From an uncultured Marinoscillum sp. (lineage in GTDB: Bacteria > Bacteroidota > Bacteroidia > Cytophagales > MED-G16), in NCBI GenBank assembly GCA_902633975.1, contig CACPHX010000001.1, positions 46,572 through 110,571 on the forward strand: a stretch of 64,000 nucleotides of DNA, in the 5' to 3' direction. A program made the position numbers and the translations under genes. The notes under the pieces were generated by a model. The model saw only the letters and a list, made by a program, of their open reading frames with translations, made no database searches and had not been told where the DNA came from. The stretch's first letter is position 1. Each line of letters opens with the position of its first letter. Shown here piece after piece: positions 19,601 through 54,643 of this stretch.

Positions 19601-20842
19601 TTACTCAAACTCTTTTTTTAGTGTATTAACAACTTCCTCAACAGTATTTTCTTCTAAGTCTGATCTTTTAATTAAATCACTTTTTTCTATATTTAAAACT
19701 GCTTTAGCAGTATCTAAACCTATCCTTTTTAGTTCATCAATTATCCAACCTTCAATTTCATCAGAAAATTCATCTAAATCTACGTCCTCTTCTTGAGATT
19801 CATCTAATTCTCTAAATACATCAATTTCCATTTCAAGTAGTCTGCTTGCTAATTTAATATTTTGCCCACCTTTACCAATAGCTAAAGAAACTTGGTCTGG
19901 TTTAAGATATACTGACACTCTCTGTTCTTCATTATCAATATTCATACTAGAAATTTTTGCTGGACTTAATGCCCTAGAAATATATAATTCCTGATTATCT
20001 GTAAAATTTATTACATCAATATTTTCATTTTGCAATTCTCTTACTATTGAATGTATTCTGGATCCATTCATTCCGACGCAAGCTCCTACTGGGTCTATTC
20101 TGTCGTCATAAGATTCAACACAAATTTTTGCTCTTTCACCAGGTTCTCTAACAGCTTTTTTTATTGTTATTAAACCGTCAGAAATTTCCGGAACTTCGTT
20201 TTCAAAAAGTTTTGTAAGAAAATTTGGACTAGTTCTTGACAAAGTTATTTTTGGATTTCCTCTAAACATTTCTACACTTGTCACCACTCCTCTGAGAGTA
20301 TCACCTTTTCTGTATTTATCTTTATGGATTTGTTCAGATCTAGGTAAGGATATTTCATTACCTTCGTTGTCTACAAGTAAAACTTCTCTACTTAATATTT
20401 GATATATCTCACCTGTTATAATCTCTCCAACCAAATCCTCGTACTTATTAATTATTACTTCTTTTTCTAAGTCCTTTACTCTTTGTATAAGTGTTTGCTT
20501 CGCTAAAATAATTGCTCTTCTCCCAAAATCTTCAATTTTAATCTCTTCAGCCACTTCATCACCTACTTCAAAGTCCTCCTCAATTTTTTTTGCATCTGTT
20601 AGTTTAATTTTATCAAAGTCCCATATATCCTCCGAGTTATCATCTACTATTTCTCTGAACCTCATTATTTCCAAATCACCTTTATCAGCGTTTATAACAA
20701 TATCAAAATTATCATCATGCTCAAATTTCTTTTTTATCATAGCCCTGAAAACATCTTGTAATATCCTGATCATTGTAGGCCTGTCTACATTTTTTTGTTT
20801 TGCAAATTCTGTAAACGTTTGTATTAGTACTCTTGTATCCAT
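19601..20842 (-). CDS. nusA: Transcription termination/antitermination factor NusA
   Basis: S1 and KH domains (GACVGMNGSRIHSIVRELQNENIDV; IGKGGQNIKLASRL). The start is set at MDTRVLIQTFTEFAK (20842). The 9-codon upstream extension in the ORF track would run through a terminator-like hairpin. Confidence 0.93.
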   Translation of the reverse strand: MDTRVLIQTFTEFAKQKNVDRPTMIRILQDVFRAMIKKKFEHDDNFDIVINADKGDLEIMRFREIVDDNSEDIWDFDKIKLTDAKKIEEDFEVGDEVAEEIKIEDFGRRAIILAKQTLIQRVKDLEKEVIINKYEDLVGEIITGEIYQILSREVLLVDNEGNEISLPRSEQIHKDKYRKGDTLRGVVTSVEMFRGNPKITLSRTSPNFLTKLFENEVPEISDGLITIKKAVREPGERAKICVESYDDRIDPVGACVGMNGSRIHSIVRELQNENIDVINFTDNQELYISRALSPAKISSMNIDNEEQRVSVYLKPDQVSLAIGKGGQNIKLASRLLEMEIDVFRELDESQEEDVDLDEFSDEIEGWIIDELKRIGLDTAKAVLNIEKSDLIKRSDLEENTVEEVVNTLKKEFE

Positions 20843-50250: not shown

Positions 50251-50793
50251 ATGAAAAAAATATTGTTAACATATTTTTCGATTTTTATTCTTTTTGCCTG
50301 TGGAGGTCCAACTCAACAACAACAAGAGGTAATAAATGCTCAAGCTCAGCTTGAAAAAGACCTTGAAATGTATAGATATGTTTGGGGAGAATTTTTTAAA
50401 GGAGATACATCAATTGTAAATGACAAATATTTTACTGAAGATGTTGTAATTGTAACCCCTGAAGGAAATCTTGTTGGTATAGAAGCTGTAAAGAATTTTT
50501 ATTTAAATTATTTCATTGGATTTTCTGACATAGAATTTACAATTGTTGATGCTTTTGGCCAGGGTGATAAAATCGTTAAATATTTTAATTTTAAAGGCAC
50601 ACATACTGGTGATTTTTTTGGTTTACCAGCTTCAGGTAATAAATTAAATCTCTCTGGAACCACATTAGTTAAAATTGAAAACGGAAGAGTATCAAGGGAG
50701 CAAGATTTTTTTGATTATGCATCTTTGATGAGCCAACTTCAACAAAATACAGGAGAAGTAACTATTGATTCACAGAGTCAAGGAGTATTATAA
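50251..50793 (+). CDS. SnoaL/ester-cyclase-like (NTF2-fold) lipoprotein
   Basis: Lipobox LFACGG and the ...FKGTHTGDFFGLPASGNKLNLSGTTLVKIENGRV.. pattern of SnoaL-like cyclases. Confidence 0.6.
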   Translation: MKKILLTYFSIFILFACGGPTQQQQEVINAQAQLEKDLEMYRYVWGEFFKGDTSIVNDKYFTEDVVIVTPEGNLVGIEAVKNFYLNYFIGFSDIEFTIVDAFGQGDKIVKYFNFKGTHTGDFFGLPASGNKLNLSGTTLVKIENGRVSREQDFFDYASLMSQLQQNTGEVTIDSQSQGVL

Positions 50794-51513
50794 TTAATTT
50801 AATACTAAATTAATTTCTCTTTCTAAATCCTCTAGACTTAATATATAAAGTCTTAAGAAGCTTAACTTATAATCAAGATATCTCTTTACCATTATAAAGT
50901 TAGCTTTTAGCTTTTTGTCACTTTTTATAGATTTAGATAATATATCTATATATTTTTTCATTGATACCGAGCTATCATCTCTAGCCAAAATTATCTCTGG
51001 ATGATTTTGAGAAATGAAAGGAAGAAAACTTTGTTTTAGCTGTTTCTCATACTCAACCGTTGTTTCAACATATGAAAATGAGGTGTTATGTAACCTGCTT
51101 AATATCTCTTTAATTTTATTAGATTTTACATATTTTAAATCTCCAGAATTAATAATAGAGTAGTATCTGTTCATTGGTGGATCAAAAACTCTATAAATAA
51201 CTAAAAAAGTTTCTATTCTGGATTTTGCTGTTGTAATTTTTAGAATTGAATCAGTGTCAACGATCCCCCCTCTTGGTAAAATCAATTCATTAAGAAGTCT
51301 GAGATCTGTCATCCAGGTTTTTTCACGTTCATAGGTATAATCCCTAATCTCATTTATCTCCATTTTTAAACTAGTTAAAACTTTAAATCTTTCAACTTCA
51401 TTCTGATTATCTATTGATAATTCATTAAGCCAGAACGATACACTTATACCTAAAACGATAACAACAAACTCGAAAGAATATTTAATGATATATTTTTTAT
51501 TAATTTTGATCAT
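50794..51513 (-). CDS. Hypothetical membrane-anchored protein (DUF6090-like)
   Basis: N-terminal KYIIKYSFEFVVIVLGISVSFWLNE anchor. No catalytic motif was recognised. Confidence 0.35.
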   Translation of the reverse strand: MIKINKKYIIKYSFEFVVIVLGISVSFWLNELSIDNQNEVERFKVLTSLKMEINEIRDYTYEREKTWMTDLRLLNELILPRGGIVDTDSILKITTAKSRIETFLVIYRVFDPPMNRYYSIINSGDLKYVKSNKIKEILSRLHNTSFSYVETTVEYEKQLKQSFLPFISQNHPEIILARDDSSVSMKKYIDILSKSIKSDKKLKANFIMVKRYLDYKLSFLRLYILSLEDLEREINLVLN

Positions 51514-51534
51514 TATTTAAAATCACTGTTAATC

Positions 51535-52713
51535 ATGATAAGATACTTAAATATTTTGATTTTTTTCTTATTTCTTTCCTCGTGCTCTGAGGAAGAAATT
51601 GTACTTGATACAGTTAATGAGGAAGAAGATACTGTTGAGGATATTGATGAGCAAACTGAGGATATTGATGAGGAGGAGGATAGTGATTTTATTAAAGATA
51701 TATTGAAAGCAAAAGGATATGATTTAGATAAATTTTATGTAGGAGCTACCCTTAATACTCAACAGTTAAATACTAATGTAGAAAATGCCTTCCTTAAAGA
51801 GTTTTCATATTCAACTGTTGAGAATAGTGCAAAGCAAAGTATAGTACATCCTGAGCCTGATGTTTGGAAGTGGGAAAGATTAGATAGTTATTTACTCTTT
51901 GCTCAAAGAAATAATATTTCAATAAGAATTCATGGTCCGGTTGGTCCTCAAAGTTCTAAATGGGCTAAAAATGATTCAAGAACTCCAAATGAACTTTTAG
52001 AGAACATGACAGAATATATGACGAATCTTTCACAAAGAATAAATCCAGTTAATTCTGTAAAGTGGATGGATGTTGTCAATGAAACAATTACAACTGATGG
52101 GAAATGGTTTGGTGAAAGACCAGGAGATGATTTGTGGGAGAACCCATGGAAACAGATCGGGATGAACGATGATAATGTTCCAATTTACATATTGAAATCT
52201 TTTGAAATTGCCAACCTGTACGCTAAAAATGTAAAGCTAATTTTTAATCAGCATGGAGGTATGGAAGAAATAATGTGGGAAAAAGTTAAGGAAACTATAA
52301 TTTACTTGAGGAATAAAGGTTATAGAATTGATGGATTGGGCTGGCAAGGTCATCTAAAAGACAACAAAAAATTATCATTGAGTGAAGATCATCTTAACTA
52401 TTTATCGGAATTGATTGACTGGGCACATGAAAATAATTTAGAGTTTCATGTAACTGAAATCGATTATGCTTTATATGATGATCCTCCTTCAACTACCTCT
52501 CTTGACAGACAAGCTAACGGATATTCGAATATACTTAAGCTTTTGATTAATAAAATGAATAATGGTGTTGTTACGTTTAACACGTGGGGTATGGTTGATA
52601 AGACAAATCAGTACAAGTTTATTTTTGATAAGAATTTAAATCCAAAACCGGCTCTTATAAAGCTTAGAGAAACATTAAAAAATAAAAGTACGGATCTTGT
52701 AATCCTTGACTAA
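51535..52713 (+). CDS. Glycoside hydrolase family 10-like lipoprotein with an acidic linker
   Basis: Lipobox LSSCSE and acidic linker EEDTVEDIDEQTEDIDEEEDSD. WMDVVNETI is the GH10 acid/base NE, and FHVTEIDY is the nucleophile (TE.D). Confidence 0.7.
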   Translation: MIRYLNILIFFLFLSSCSEEEIVLDTVNEEEDTVEDIDEQTEDIDEEEDSDFIKDILKAKGYDLDKFYVGATLNTQQLNTNVENAFLKEFSYSTVENSAKQSIVHPEPDVWKWERLDSYLLFAQRNNISIRIHGPVGPQSSKWAKNDSRTPNELLENMTEYMTNLSQRINPVNSVKWMDVVNETITTDGKWFGERPGDDLWENPWKQIGMNDDNVPIYILKSFEIANLYAKNVKLIFNQHGGMEEIMWEKVKETIIYLRNKGYRIDGLGWQGHLKDNKKLSLSEDHLNYLSELIDWAHENNLEFHVTEIDYALYDDPPSTTSLDRQANGYSNILKLLINKMNNGVVTFNTWGMVDKTNQYKFIFDKNLNPKPALIKLRETLKNKSTDLVILD

Positions 52714-53141
52714 TGAAGAAAATATGTTATTTAATTATTATATGTTTTTTTTCAATTTCTGATTCTGTATCACAAAACTTATCAAAAAGAGATAGCATTA
52801 AGCTAAAAAAAATAAATATAGATTTAAATAATATTAGTGTGAAAGATCAATTTCAACTTGAGAATATTTTGTATTTTGACAGGAGAATAAAAGTAAATAA
52901 AGCGTTTAATATTATTCTCCAAGTATTTGCAGCTCCATATATATCGTTGGGAGTTATTTCCCTTGCAACCGTAGGAAGAACTGATCCGACTTGGAGGGGT
53001 CTAAATGTTGTTGCTGGAGTAATTGGTTTTCTAGTGGGAGGATCAATTTATGGTATTTCAAGACCATTTAAGAAAGGGATTATGAGAAATAAAATTTTGA
53101 GAGATAGGCTTATTCATAAATTATCTAGAGGAGGTGATTAA
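52713..53141 (+). CDS. Hypothetical protein with signal peptide and two C-terminal TM segments
   Basis: 142 aa. No recognised motif. ATGA-type overlap with the preceding gene. Confidence 0.4.
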   Translation: MKKICYLIIICFFSISDSVSQNLSKRDSIKLKKINIDLNNISVKDQFQLENILYFDRRIKVNKAFNIILQVFAAPYISLGVISLATVGRTDPTWRGLNVVAGVIGFLVGGSIYGISRPFKKGIMRNKILRDRLIHKLSRGGD

Positions 53142-53247
53142 TTAAAGTTTCGATTAATTAAAACATATTTAATTTTAATTTCTTAGATTTTATTCATAAC
53201 CATTTTAATAATTTTTAAAATCTACATCTTTTTTTTATTTTAGTAAA

Positions 53248-53313
53248 ATGAATTGTGATTGTAAAGTATGTGATTGTAAAGAATCTTGCAGTTGTTCTTG
53301 CTGTGATTACTAG
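53248..53313 (+). CDS. Unannotated 21-aa cysteine-rich peptide (metallothionein-like mini-ORF)
   Basis: Hand translation: ATG AAT TGT GAT TGT AAA GTA TGT GAT TGT AAA GAA TCT TGC AGT TGT TCT TGC TGT GAT TAC TAG = MNCDCKVCDCKESCSCSCCDY. It lies 28 nt upstream of the MerC-like gene on the same strand. The near-consensus -7 box TATTTTAG is at 53237-53244. Confidence 0.35.
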   Translation: MNCDCKVCDCKESCSCSCCDY

Positions 53314-53341
53314 TTCTTAAAATAAATATTGTTTATGTGTT

Positions 53342-53713
53342 ATGAGAATATCGATTGAAAAGCCAGATAATTATGGTGTAGCCTTTAGTTCTCTCTGTAT
53401 GCTTCACTGCTATTTAACTCCTTTTTTATTCCTTACGCAAGGCCATTTATCATTTGTGCCTGGATGGTGGCAAAGTCTCAATTTTTTATTCCTTGCTTTA
53501 TCCTTCCTTGCAATCTGTTTCTCAGTAAAAAATTCAACTAGTTTGGTCGTTAAATTTTTATTATTCACTTTTTGGTTTGCATTGGCATTTCTTCTAATTA
53601 GTGAGGAGTTCGAATTTTTTCATTTGCCAGAGGCAATGACATATGCTGCAGGATTTTCCCTTGCTTTCTTACACATATATAACAAGAAATATTGTAATTG
53701 TAATGAAGGTTAG
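53342..53713 (+). CDS. MerC-domain membrane protein (putative metal-ion transporter, not in a mer operon)
   Basis: 123 aa, four TM segments, N-terminal SSLCMLHC motif in TM1 and a C-terminal cytoplasmic CNCNEG tail. Confidence 0.65.
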   Translation: MRISIEKPDNYGVAFSSLCMLHCYLTPFLFLTQGHLSFVPGWWQSLNFLFLALSFLAICFSVKNSTSLVVKFLLFTFWFALAFLLISEEFEFFHLPEAMTYAAGFSLAFLHIYNKKYCNCNEG

Positions 53714-53750
53714 TGCTGCGTAGACTAATAAATATTCTAGCAAATATTCA

Positions 53751-54194
53751 CTAAATCCATCTCCTAGTTTTCTTCTTGTATGATAAATATTCATTACCAA
53801 ATTTTTCTGTAAGAAATTCCTCTTCTCTTTTGATTTGAAATTTATTTATCCATAGCACAAATAAGATAGGGGTTAGTATAGAGTAAATATTTAAATAAAA
53901 TATTGACGTGGATAAAATAATCATCAACATACCCAGGTACATAGGATTTCTTGAATATTTAAATATCCCTGAGGTTACTAGTTTATTGACTTCCTCGAAC
54001 TGGATTGGATTAACAGTTGTTTTTGATTTTATGAATTGCAGCACTGGATTTAGAAAAATGAGTATTCCAACAGAAAGTATAAAAATTGATATTTCCAGTT
54101 GCAATGGTATATTGATTAGATCAATTTTTTTTGATGAAAAATAAATGGAAATAATTAAGACTAAAACTATAAGTGGGGGAGGTATTTTTATCAT
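53751..54194 (-). CDS. Isoprenylcysteine carboxyl methyltransferase (ICMT)/phospholipid methyltransferase-family membrane protein
   Basis: Multi-TM with GIFKYSRNPMYLG and a C-terminal EEEFLTEKFGNEY motif. Confidence 0.75.
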   Translation of the reverse strand: MIKIPPPLIVLVLIISIYFSSKKIDLINIPLQLEISIFILSVGILIFLNPVLQFIKSKTTVNPIQFEEVNKLVTSGIFKYSRNPMYLGMLMIILSTSIFYLNIYSILTPILFVLWINKFQIKREEEFLTEKFGNEYLSYKKKTRRWI

Positions 54195-54256
54195 TATTTA
54201 TATATTTTAATTATTAGATATGGGTAATATTAACCGCAGGTTTCATACGTATTTTT

Positions 54257-54643
54257 TCAATTTTTTTTAAGATCTTTAAATACTTTAAACTCTTTTTCAC
54301 CAAAATACATCTTGCTTACTAGTAGTATTACTTCATCAGTTAAATCTTGTGCATTTTTAGATGATAGATTAAATTTAGTACCATCCATGCTAATTAACTG
54401 ATTTTTTTCTGAATTTAAATCAATTGAGGTATAAAAATGATACCTAATAACGTAATCAAGGGTTAAATTGGTATTATTATAATATTGTTGAAACAAAGAT
54501 TTATCAGAAATTGTTGTTTTTAAAACTCTATATGGTTTTGAAAAGTTATTACTAAGTCTGAGTGCAGGTAACTCTTCTTCATGATCTATTGACTGGCTAA
54601 ATGATGTTAAAGGAATAAATATTAGTAATATTAGATGTTTCAT
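54257..54643 (-). CDS. Hypothetical secreted protein
   Basis: Signal peptide MKHLILLIFIPLTSFSQ. No recognised domain. Confidence 0.4.
   Translation of the reverse strand: MKHLILLIFIPLTSFSQSIDHEEELPALRLSNNFSKPYRVLKTTISDKSLFQQYYNNTNLTLDYVIRYHFYTSIDLNSEKNQLISMDGTKFNLSSKNAQDLTDEVILLVSKMYFGEKEFKVFKDLKKN

What the first reader, a model, noticed from the sequence alone, without database searches (positions are those of the whole stretch)
53248..53713. Hidden 21-aa, 8-cysteine mini-ORF coupled to a MerC-family membrane protein: candidate minimal metallothionein-like metal-handling module
- **The mini-ORF (seen):** it runs from ATG 53248 to TAG 53311-53313 and is below the ORF-track size cut-off. It encodes MNCDCKVCDCKESCSCSCCDY, with 8 Cys in 21 residues.
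- **Cys spacing:** the CxC, CxxC and CC spacing matches that of metallothionein thiolate clusters. The rest is acidic or basic, with one terminal Tyr. A 13-nt direct repeat TGTGATTGTAAAG (53254-66 and 53269-81) encodes CDCK twice.
- **Unlikely to be a chance ORF:** in this AT-rich genome, eight in-frame TGY codons without a TGA stop are unlikely to arise by chance.
- **The partner gene:** 28 nt downstream on the same strand starts a 123-aa 4-TM protein with LCMLHC in TM1 and a CNCNEG tail, a MerC-domain type. No merR/merA/merP/merT is present, so this is not a mercury operon.
- **Size comparison (established knowledge):** characterised bacterial metallothioneins (SmtA/BmtA, MymT) are more than 50 aa. 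The smallest fungal Cu-metallothioneins are about 25 aa.
- **Why it matters:** a 21-aa thiolate peptide genetically paired with a thiol-lined membrane protein is, to my knowledge, undescribed. It would be a minimal buffer-plus-channel system for soft metals (Cu(I), Zn, Cd, Hg).
- **Alternatives:** a Cys-rich RiPP precursor (no maturase is nearby), or a regulatory uORF sensing Cys-tRNA supply (no attenuator hairpin is seen).
Basis: partly seen in the sequence, partly recalled or inferred. Interest (0 to 1): 0.85.

Follow-up and report, generated by a model that had tools for sequence, protein, structure and literature searches.

The report
Tiny nine-cysteine peptide gene family
The 21-codon cysteine-packed reading frame is a real gene from a large, apparently undescribed family of 20-24-residue metallothionein-like peptides, found mostly on marine phage contigs and linked to a MerC-type membrane protein in only two bacterial lineages.

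Summary
- ATG 53248 to TAG 53313 encodes MNCDCKVCDCKESCSCSCCDY.
- A Pfam MerC gene starts 28 nt downstream.

**The mini-ORF is not a chance frame.**
- A relative whose MerC is only 70% identical keeps a 21-codon version in frame, with all eight Cys codons intact.
- The flanks of that relative are unalignable.

**It belongs to a family.** Scans of IMG/VR viral contigs found at least 129 copies (101 distinct peptides, 20-24 aa).
- Consensus: M-[KN]-C-[ND]-C-x2-C-x-C-G-[TK]-S-C-x-C-x-C-C-[ND]-C-stop.
- Cys codons vary synonymously, and dN/dS is about 0.43 at non-Cys codons.
- The contigs tested resemble a Flavobacterium myovirus.
- The family has no hit in Pfam, NCBIfam, PHROGs, a 5.8-billion-protein collection or the paper library.

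**The MerC link is narrow.**
- It is absent upstream of MerC in the other MerC loci examined, including all 80 genome loci.
- None of the viral copies has MerC nearby.
- The window's copy is atypical: the otherwise invariant last Cys is Tyr, and its merC has a premature TAG.

**Best reading:** a cytoplasmic metal-thiolate (metallothionein-like) peptide, co-transcribed with a MerC-type transporter here. Metal binding is inferred, not shown.

The parts
53248..53313 (+). Mini-ORF of 21 codons plus TAG, encoding MNCDCKVCDCKESCSCSCCDY. It is a divergent member of the nine-Cys peptide family: codon 21 is TAC (Tyr), where every other family member recovered has Cys.
   Evidence: ORF and translation. 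Conserved in L081 and L205-L208. Viral family. Last Cys invariant: 34 of 34 in the scan that did not require it, 101 of 101 distinct viral peptides overall.
53209..53216 (+). TAATTTTT, a one-mismatch match to the Bacteroidetes -7 promoter element TAnnTTTG, 39 nt before the mini-ORF ATG. This is only a candidate promoter for a shared mini-ORF/merC transcript.
   Evidence: L205 has TGATTTTG at the same offset. There is no usable match between the mini-ORF and merC. Weak evidence.
53314..53341 (+). AT-rich 28-nt spacer between the mini-ORF stop and the merC start. It holds no terminator. A weak AU hairpin spans the spacer and the merC ATG.
   Evidence: No terminator-like site. Fold not different from shuffles (z -0.6 to -1.3). 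The spacer is 21 nt in L205.
53342..53713 (+). MerC-family (PF03203) membrane protein gene of 123 codons. It carries LCMLHC in TM1 and a CNCNEG tail, and ends at an in-frame TAG (53711-53713).
   Evidence: Pfam. 88 homologues. Alignment. Hydropathy and charge distribution place both ends in the cytoplasm: (inference).
53714..53728 (+). TGC TGC GTA GAC TAA, the CCVD-stop ending that full-length relatives translate. Here the TAG cuts it off from the merC ORF.
   Evidence: The 98.5%-identical contig L081 has GAG at 53711-53713.

Best explanation
**What it is**
- The mini-ORF is a translated small gene of a previously unannotated family of 20-24-residue peptides.
- The family has a fixed Cys pattern, C-x-C-x2-C-x-C-x3-C-x-C-x-C-C-x-C, and ends right after the last Cys.
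- It is common on marine viral contigs. Three tested contigs are most similar to a Flavobacterium myovirus.
- In one clade of marine Bacteroidota it was placed 21-28 nt upstream of a MerC-family gene and kept there.

**How it most likely works (inferred)**
- The peptide has no signal sequence and no hydrophobic core, so it should stay in the cytoplasm.
- It should fold only around soft metal ions as a metal-thiolate cluster, like a single metallothionein domain. Nine thiolates match an M(II)3Cys9 cluster or a Cu(I) cluster.
- In the window it is co-transcribed, and probably translationally coupled, with the MerC-type protein.
- That protein has a TM1 Cys pair and a Cys-rich tail predicted to face the cytoplasm. 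The peptide could therefore accept or buffer the metal the transporter brings in.
- Zn(II) or a similar divalent ion is more likely than Hg. In other Flavobacteriaceae this MerC subfamily sits behind a Fur-family-type operator, next to FolE and COG0523 genes.

**Shown versus inferred**
- Shown: the gene is real, the family exists, selection acts on it, and the synteny holds.
- Inferred: translation, metal binding, hand-off with MerC, and which metal.
For: **Coding and selected**
- Window versus L205: mini-ORF 81.8% nt identity, merC 70.6%, flanks about 57%. Length, frame, ATG and stop are the same and all 8 Cys codons are kept, while codons 7, 9, 11, 12 and 21 change.
- Codons at conserved residues are identical in 14 of 15 cases, against 40 of 82 in merC.
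- A scan pattern that specified no start, no stop and no last Cys gave 39 hits. Of these, 34 have an ATG 1-4 codons before the first Cys, a stop 2-3 codons after the CC pair, and the ninth Cys.
- In all there are 129 copies and 101 distinct peptides; 81 copies are 21 aa.
- In 66 distinct 21-codon genes, non-Cys codons give pN 0.33 against pS 0.56 (dN/dS about 0.43). Cys codons are TGT 434 to TGC 160.

**Product rather than leader**
- 29 of 108 distinct viral contexts have a strong intrinsic terminator within 90 nt after the mini-ORF.

**Metallothionein-like features**
- 38-45% Cys.
- CxC, CxxC and CC motifs.
- No aromatic residue among the commonest residues at any position.

**Link to MerC**
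- The same order and strand, with 21-28 nt spacing, is found in two lineages with different neighbours.
- The two bacterial peptides are each other's closest relatives.
- No terminator lies between the genes.
- The MerC charge distribution fits an N-in, C-in topology.

**Metal context of the MerC subfamily**
- The palindrome TGCAAC-N3-GTTGCA lies upstream in 31 of the 80 genome loci.
- A Fur-family gene is divergent in 7 loci. GTP cyclohydrolase I lies downstream in 17 of 77. CobW, TonB-receptor and CDF genes are also nearby.
Against: **No direct data**
- There is no evidence of transcription, translation or metal binding.

**The MerC link is narrow**
- The pairing is seen in only two lineages.
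- It is missing from the P0002 group, which clusters with them in the NJ tree.
- None of the viral copies has MerC in the fetched flanks.
- No metal-handling gene recurs next to them. The recurrent neighbours are an FAD-dependent dehydrogenase, a holin, a primase and a homing endonuclease.

**The window's own pair looks damaged**
- Cys21 is Tyr and merC has a premature TAG.
- The 98.5%-identical L081 has a GTG start.

**Other points**
- The Fur-type operator is absent from the window and from L205, so the zinc argument rests on distant orthologues.
- No sequence match to any metallothionein family in Pfam, and only an insignificant match to a non-metallothionein chain in the PDB.
- Synonymous sites of the bacterial pair are unusually conserved. 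This could point to an additional nucleotide-level role.
Confidence: 0.5

Rival explanations
1. The peptide is a phage-type small protein whose job is not metal buffering, for example control of lysis timing, host take-over, anti-defence, or a redox-active thiol peptide. Its position in front of merC in one bacterial clade would then be an incidental insertion that persisted, like a moron gene.
For: - Most copies found are viral and lack MerC.
- In many contigs it directly follows a holin (cluster 12, 15 loci) or precedes an M15 endolysin.
- A GIY-YIG homing endonuclease lies within about 1.5 kb in 18 loci, which suggests mobility.
- Most MerC orthologues do without it.
- The window's pair carries lesions.
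Against: - Nine invariant Cys at fixed spacing in about 21 residues, with no other structural element, will form metal-thiolate clusters in a reducing cytoplasm (established metallothionein chemistry). Any function would probably still work through bound metal.
- The merC pairing survived about 30% protein divergence while both flanks were replaced.
Confidence: 0.25
2. The mini-ORF is a regulatory upstream ORF or leader peptide. Ribosome progress through its 8-9 Cys codons, sensing Cys-tRNA supply or metal binding by the nascent chain, would set translation or transcription of the gene downstream. The peptide itself would be a by-product.
For: - Only 21-28 nt separate the mini-ORF from merC, with no promoter-like element between them.
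- A weak AU hairpin covers the merC start in both the window and L205.
- In 28 distinct viral sequences the mini-ORF is followed by a conserved hairpin, a terminator and then an FAD-dependent dehydrogenase. This resembles an attenuator layout.
- Synonymous sites are unusually conserved between the two bacterial copies.
Against: - The spacing of the Cys residues is invariant, as are Gly11 and Ser13, and dN/dS is below 1 at non-Cys codons. This points to selection on the product, not merely on Cys codon count.
- Downstream genes are unrelated to one another and to cysteine metabolism.
- No alternative pairing between the coding part and the downstream hairpins was predicted.
- Folds in the window are no better than shuffles and no Rfam family matches.
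- There is no terminator between the mini-ORF and merC.
Confidence: 0.12
3. The peptide is a precursor of a ribosomally made, post-translationally modified natural product (a Cys-rich RiPP core).
For: It is a short, Cys-rich peptide, and some RiPP classes modify Cys. One bacterial locus (L205) has an FGE-sulfatase-domain gene next to merC on the opposite strand.
Against: - It has no leader region: 1-4 residues precede the first Cys.
- No maturase is shared between the window, L205 and the viral contexts.
- The FGE-type gene is absent from the window neighbourhood.
Confidence: 0.04
4. The window copy is a decaying, non-functional remnant. The family may be real elsewhere, but this locus does nothing.
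For: - The window has Tyr at the otherwise invariant ninth Cys, and a nonsense codon removes the conserved CC of MerC.
- The near-identical L081 has GTG in place of ATG.
Against: - Only 9 differences in 620 nt separate the two strains, and each strain has a different blemish. The ancestor was therefore intact very recently.
- The frame is open in both. GTG can initiate.
- Eight Cys and a MerC lacking five residues may still work.
Confidence: 0.09

Closest known systems
Fungal copper metallothioneins of the Neurospora crassa / Agaricus bisporus type (about 25 aa, 7 Cys; recalled from established knowledge, not tested here)
   Same: - A single-domain peptide of 20-25 residues.
- 30-45% Cys in CxC and CxxC motifs.
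- The other residues are mostly Gly, Ser, Asn, Asp and Lys, with no hydrophobic core. Compare the segment C-N-C-G-[ST]-S-C-S-C with fungal C-N-C-G-S-G-C-S-C.
   Different: - No detectable homology: no Pfam metallothionein family matches.
- 9 Cys rather than 7, including a CC pair and a C-terminal Cys.
- Encoded by phages and Bacteroidota, not eukaryotes.
- Metal binding has not been shown.
Bacterial metallothioneins SmtA/BmtA (about 55 aa, Zn4Cys9His2) and MymT (about 53 aa, Cu(I))
   Same: Cytoplasmic, Cys-rich bacterial metal buffers. SmtA also uses nine Cys.
   Different: - Less than half the size.
- No His ligands and no zinc-finger-like fold element.
- No sequence match.
- Not next to an SmtB-type regulator.
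Beta-domain of vertebrate metallothionein (M(II)3Cys9 cluster)
   Same: Nine Cys in a short segment rich in CxC motifs, the number needed for a three-metal thiolate cluster.
   Different: - About 21 instead of about 30 residues, with different spacing.
- A free-standing gene product rather than one of two domains.
- This is an analogy only.
Mer-type mercury uptake with thiol hand-off (MerT or MerC membrane protein passing Hg(II) from a TM Cys pair and a cytoplasmic Cys pair to the N-terminal domain of MerA)
   Same: - The partner gene is a Pfam MerC member.
- It has a Cys pair in TM1 and a Cys-rich tail predicted to face the cytoplasm.
- A soluble thiol-rich acceptor is encoded alongside.
   Different: - No merR, merA, merP or merT next to it.
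- The acceptor is a 21-aa peptide, not an HMA-fold domain.
- The genomic context of the orthologues points to a Fur-family (Zur-like) regulon rather than mercury resistance.
Amino-acid-rich leader peptides of attenuators (his, trp, thr, leu leaders)
   Same: A very short ORF, dense in one codon type, directly upstream of another gene. Some viral copies are followed by a hairpin plus terminator.
   Different: - The Cys positions are fixed rather than clustered, and the product is under purifying selection.
- No antiterminator alternative was predicted.
- The downstream genes are unrelated to cysteine supply.

Membership tests
Metallothionein (operational definition) | Low molecular mass and very high Cys content in CxC, CxxC and CC motifs. 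| tested here: met
   21 aa with 8 Cys (38%) in the window. Family members have 9 Cys in 20-24 aa.
Metallothionein (operational definition) | Few or no aromatic residues or His. | tested here: met
   No aromatic residue among the six commonest residues at any position of the 101 viral peptides. His occurs once, at position 20, and the window copy has one terminal Tyr.
Metallothionein (operational definition) | Forms metal-thiolate clusters with defined stoichiometry. | not testable with these tools
   Needs a synthetic peptide with UV, ESI-MS or ICP-MS measurements.
Any curated metallothionein sequence family (Pfam, NCBIfam) | Significant profile match. | tested here: not met
   No Pfam family at E up to 1 and no NCBIfam family at E up to 10. 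The best PDB hit is an unrelated CART peptide at E 0.22.
MerC (Pfam PF03203) | Profile match above the gathering score over the whole domain. | tested here: met
   55.2 bits against a cut-off of 27.6, covering profile positions 1-107 of 108. All 88 homologues carry PF03203.
MerC mercury transporter of mer operons | Located in a mer operon with merR, merT or merP, and merA. | tested here: not met
   The ORFs scanned around it (50251-54643) are a SnoaL-like protein, a GH10 enzyme, an ICMT/PEMT-like methyltransferase and three proteins with no Pfam match. The related loci do not have mer genes as recurrent neighbours either.
MerC mercury transporter of mer operons | Transports Hg(II) through the TM1 Cys pair. 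| not testable with these tools
   The invariant C19, H22 and C23 in TM1 are present. Function is untested.
Transcription-attenuation leader peptide | Mutually exclusive terminator and antiterminator structures between the leader ORF and the regulated gene. | tested here: not met
   No terminator-like site between 53313 and 53342. Folds are indistinguishable from shuffles. The consensus fold of the viral group shows an independent hairpin only.
RiPP precursor | A leader or follower region and a co-located modifying enzyme. | tested here: not met
   1-4 residues precede the first Cys. No maturase is shared across contexts.
Nine-Cys mini-peptide family defined here | M, then 0-3 residues, then C-x-C-x2-C-x-C-x3-C-x-C-x-C-C-x-C followed at once (or after one residue) by a stop codon. 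| tested here: inconclusive
   The window copy matches the start, length, spacing and eight Cys, but has Tyr at the ninth Cys position. L081 and L205 match fully.

The most novel reading that the evidence does not exclude
**A smallest-known metallothionein-type gene family.** Marine phages of Flavobacteriia, and a few of their host lineages, would carry a 20-24-residue nine-Cys peptide that is invisible to gene callers.

**Proposed role in phages.** They would use it to capture or deliver scarce soft metals during infection in metal-poor seawater. Zinc is the likely metal, serving their Zn-dependent enzymes.

**Proposed role in hosts.** One host clade would have wired the same peptide to a MerC-type importer as a two-gene uptake-and-buffer unit.
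Probability: 0.3. Interest if true: 0.85.

Novelty: new variant of a known kind. Interest (0 to 1): 0.74.

Why it matters
**For genome annotation**
- The family shows how an abundant gene family can be missed entirely because it lies below gene-calling length limits.
None appears in a collection of 5.8 billion predicted proteins.

**For metal biology, if the peptides bind metal**
- They would be the shortest genetically encoded metallothionein-type molecules known.
- They would be the first I am aware of that are carried by phages.
- They would open a testable link between viral infection and trace-metal economy (Zn, Cu, Cd) in the surface ocean.

**Side result**
- This MerC subfamily sits in a Fur-family (Zur-like) regulon in many Flavobacteriaceae. 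Proteins annotated as 'mercury resistance MerC' may therefore act in uptake of an essential metal.

Tried and rejected
**Searches that gave nothing useful**
- **Cys-only DNA pattern on metagenome contigs:** swamped by TGC/TGT microsatellites.
- **Peptide searches of the big protein collection:** A 42-aa tandem query found no protein sharing three 5-residue words.
- **PHROGs, Pfam and NCBIfam with family peptides:** no hit.
- **GenBank phages:** tblastn and blastn, including 40 concatenated variants, found no real match. The low-complexity filter may hide true hits.
- **Cultured relative:** the whole 160-kb genome of Flavobacterium phage immuto was fetched and scanned. It has no family member.
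- **Literature:** no paper prints the peptide strings, and nothing relevant was found on phage metallothioneins or on MerC with Zur.

**Ideas rejected**
- **Recurrent 15-residue frame G[KE]CRCCSCSCCDCL[LF] in 16 viral loci:** it is antisense to the start of a real phage gene.
- **Structured RNA or a known RNA family at the locus:** z-scores are -0.6 to -1.3 and no Rfam hit is below E 3.
- **Fur-type operator in front of the mini-ORF:** absent from the window and from L205.
- **TAG reassignment as an explanation for the in-frame TAG:** long ORFs in the window end in TAA 26, TAG 8 and TGA 6, so the code is standard.
- **The downstream FAD enzyme as a disulfide reductase partner:** it has no CxxxxC redox motif and no PDB relative by sequence.
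- **Origin of the mini-ORF by duplication of the Cys-rich MerC tail:** considered, but the similarity is compositional only. Not testable here.
Full report
**1. The observation**

The window contains an ORF at 53248-53313 (+) that translates to MNCDCKVCDCKESCSCSCCDY. The 13-nt direct repeat is at 53254-66 and 53269-81. After a 28-nt spacer, a 123-codon ORF (53342-53713) matches Pfam MerC at E 1.3e-14, well above the gathering score.

The other six ORFs scanned between 50251 and 54643 are not mer genes. They are a SnoaL-like protein, a GH10 enzyme, an ICMT/PEMT-like methyltransferase and three proteins with no Pfam match.

The window has 30% G+C. In 300 first-order Markov simulations of it, none produced 8 Cys in a stop-free 21-residue frame, and 7 Cys appeared in 3 of 300. 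Chance alone is therefore unlikely.

**2. Conservation next to merC**

The MerC protein has 88 homologues in the large protein collection, all from marine samples. Contig L081 is 98.5% identical to the window over 620 nt. It carries the same mini-ORF with two changes: the ATG is GTG, and codon 21 is TGC (Cys) instead of TAC (Tyr).

The contigs carrying P0005 are more informative. MerC there is 70% identical. A mini-ORF lies 21 nt before merC: ATGAATTGTGATTGTAAAAATTGTGAATGTACTAACTCTTGCAGTTGCTCTTGCTGTGATTGTTAA, encoding MNCDCKNCECTNSCSCSCCDC. The copy is identical in four of the six contigs; the other two hold too little upstream sequence.

| Region, window versus L205 | Nucleotide identity |
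|---|---|
| Mini-ORF | 81.8% |
| merC | 70.6% |
| Flanks | about 57% |

- Frame, length, start and stop are kept.
- All Cys codons are kept, while codons 7, 9, 11, 12 and 21 change, some at two or three bases.
- The genes around the pair differ between the two genomes.
- Codons at conserved residues are identical in 14 of 15 cases, against 40 of 82 in merC (Fisher p about 0.001). Part of this reflects AT-biased two-fold codons.

**3. The pairing is not general**

- 80 species-representative genome loci encoding this MerC subfamily show no Cys-rich mini-ORF upstream or anywhere within 4 kb.
- Close metagenomic relatives P0002, P0004, P0007, P0010 and P0039 have 10-90-nt upstream gaps, too short for a mini-ORF or read directly and found to lack one.
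- P0008 and P0041 have about 60 nt upstream or contigs cut there, so they are uninformative.
- In a neighbour-joining tree, the window with P0001, P0005 and the P0002 group form one clade. The mini-ORF was therefore gained once and lost in the P0002 group, or the topology is not reliable.
- The two bacterial peptides are each other's closest relatives: 7 non-Cys identities, against at most 6 to any viral peptide.

**4. A large family on viral contigs**

Degenerate DNA patterns were scanned against IMG/VR.

- A pattern for CSCSCCD found eight contigs with mini-ORFs such as MNINCNCKSCNCGSSCSCSCCDC and MENCNCQVCKCGTSCSCSCCDC.
- A second pattern specified only N, C, [ND] and seven further Cys positions. 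It gave 39 hits. Of these, 34 also had an ATG 1-4 codons before the first Cys, a ninth Cys two codons after the CC pair, and a stop directly or one codon after it. None of these features was in the pattern.

Together the scans gave 129 copies and 101 distinct peptides of 20-24 aa, 81 of them 21 aa. The contigs have 27-42% G+C.

The consensus is M-[KN]-C-[ND]-C-[KQ]-x-C-[NKG]-C-G-[TK]-S-C-x-C-x-C-C-[ND]-C.

- In 66 distinct 21-codon genes, the non-Cys codons, which no pattern constrained, give pN 0.33 against pS 0.56. That is dN/dS of about 0.43.
- The Cys codons split TGT 434 to TGC 160.

This is the signature of a translated, selected peptide.

**5. What the carriers are**

- Contig L300 has a holin, a large terminase and other phage genes.
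- Its terminase is 57% identical to that of Flavobacterium phage vB_FspM_immuto. That phage is also the nearest cultured relative for a glycosyltransferase of L312 (53% identity). A protein of L257 matches it only weakly (39% over 23% of its length).
- The cultured immuto genome itself has no family member.
- No MerC is encoded in any fetched viral locus.

The neighbours vary:

| Neighbour | Position relative to the mini-ORF | Viral loci |
|---|---|---|
| FAD-dependent dehydrogenase | downstream | 39 of 129 |
| Holin | directly upstream | about 15 |
| Peptidase M15 endolysin | downstream | 5 |
| dCMP deaminase | downstream | 1 |
| DNA primase | nearby | 18 |
| GIY-YIG homing endonuclease | nearby | 18 |

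In 29 of 108 distinct contexts, a strong intrinsic terminator follows within 90 nt. In those cases the mini-ORF ends a transcription unit.

**6. Is the family known?**

- No Pfam, NCBIfam or PHROGs model matches.
- No protein in the 5.8-billion collection shares three 5-residue words with a window-plus-consensus query.
- No GenBank phage matched, although the low-complexity filter may hide hits.
- No paper in the library prints the peptide strings.
- Literature searches on phage metallothioneins returned nothing relevant.

Within these limits, the family is undescribed.

**7. The MerC partner**

- Homologues end in C-x-C-x-D-x-x-C-C-x-D. They have invariant C19, H22 and C23 in TM1.
- Lys and Arg lie at the N-terminus, in the TM2-TM3 loop and in the C-terminal tail. 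The other two loops have none, and the TM3-TM4 loop is acidic.
- By the positive-inside rule, both ends and the Cys tail face the cytoplasm. This is an inference.

In other Flavobacteriaceae the subfamily has a metal-homeostasis context.

- 31 of the 80 genome loci have the palindrome TGCAAC-N3-GTTGCA about 30 nt before the start, often with a second copy at -70.
- A Fur-family gene is divergent in 7 loci.
- GTP cyclohydrolase I follows in 17 of 77.
- CobW/COG0523, TonB-receptor and CDF genes also occur.

FolE-type cyclohydrolases and COG0523 proteins are known members of Zur regulons (abstracts of PMC2770081 and PMC10882993, listed). The operator is absent from the window and from L205.

**8. 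How it probably works**

*Shown:* a conserved, selected mini-gene in the same orientation as merC, 21-28 nt upstream of it, with no terminator between them. No promoter-like element lies between them either. A one-mismatch Bacteroidetes -7 box lies 39 nt before the mini-ORF in both lineages, which is weak evidence.

*Inferred:*
- The two genes share one transcript.
- The peptide is cytoplasmic because it has no signal sequence.
- It folds around soft metal ions as a thiolate cluster.
- It takes metal from, or buffers metal for, the MerC-type transporter.
- Zinc-like ions are favoured by the orthologue context.

Bacteroidia ribosomes do not use Shine-Dalgarno pairing (abstract of PMC9976891, listed). 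The lack of such a site is therefore not evidence against translation.

**9. Rival explanations**

- **Leader peptide or uORF.** The tight spacing and the hairpin-terminator layout in one viral group favour it. Against it are the fixed Cys spacing, selection at non-Cys codons, unrelated downstream genes, and the absence of alternative structures.
- **A phage function unrelated to metal buffering.** The viral contexts make this plausible, and it remains the main rival.
- **A RiPP precursor.** It lacks a leader region and a shared maturase.
- **A decaying window copy.** The Y21 change and the TAG in merC suggest it, but the near-identical L081 shows both sites were intact very recently.

**10. 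Verdict**

The finding is best described as a divergent bacterial member of a new, mostly phage-borne family of nine-Cys mini-peptides, linked in one clade to a MerC-type gene. Function remains to be shown.

Noticed in passing
window 53711-53728: The merC ORF stops at an in-frame TAG where the 98.5%-identical contig L081 has GAG. The codons for CCVD and the normal TAA follow. This cuts off the nearly invariant C-terminal CC pair. All three stop codons are in normal use in the window, so this is a nonsense change or a sequencing error, not recoding.
   Followed up: yes
L018, L019, L028, L029, L031, L035, L036, L038 and 23 other genome loci, about 25-35 nt and about 70 nt before the MerC start: - The palindrome TGCAAC-N3-GTTGCA, often in two copies, overlaps a TAnnTTTG promoter box upstream of MerC in 31 of 80 Flavobacteriaceae loci.
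- A Fur-family gene lies divergent to it, GTP cyclohydrolase I lies downstream, and CobW, TonB-receptor and CDF genes are nearby.
- This looks like a Zur-type regulon that includes a 'MerC' protein. I found no description of it in the paper library.
   Followed up: partly
L300 8566-8660 and the equivalent stretch in 27 other viral loci (for example L276, L279, L283, L292): - A conserved structured element follows the viral mini-ORF stop.
- It has a 5-bp hairpin with compensatory changes at 4 of 5 pairs and an invariant loop ATTCATAGC, then an A-rich linker.
- A long GC-rich hairpin with a T8 tract follows, then CGTATATTAAC, then an FAD-dependent dehydrogenase gene.
- No Rfam family matches.
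   Followed up: partly
L220 129-155, L222 12535-12561, L224 666-692 (viral contigs): Other Cys-rich ORFs unrelated in pattern to the family. Examples are MIEYKCENCDCKNCDCENCNCENCDCK and an 86-aa protein starting MENEKHECCNECGENCDCKDCDCCDKP. Phage contigs may hold further hidden Cys-rich small genes.
   Followed up: no
L413 20246-20331 (Flavobacterium phage immuto, record 20246-20331): The nearest cultured relative of three tested carrier contigs encodes a tRNA-Cys and a full 7-deazaguanine pathway with several Zn-dependent enzymes (FolE, QueC, QueD). It has no nine-Cys mini-ORF.
   Followed up: partly
L286 3248-3748 and 17 other viral loci, about 1.5 kb upstream of the mini-ORF: A SegE-like GIY-YIG homing endonuclease gene recurs near the mini-ORF. 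This hints that the region is a mobile cassette.
   Followed up: no
window 53314-53352 and L205 372-405: In both lineages a weak AU-rich hairpin is predicted that starts just after the mini-ORF stop and includes the merC ATG. This would fit translational coupling, but the energies are no better than those of shuffled sequence.
   Followed up: partly
L035 (P0035, 54-kb contig) C-terminal region of MerC: One MerC homologue (P0035) diverges from its close relatives P0002, P0003 and P0006 in a frameshift-like manner. It loses the Cys tail and ends ...NKSIVNVMTKVVVLIK.
   Followed up: no
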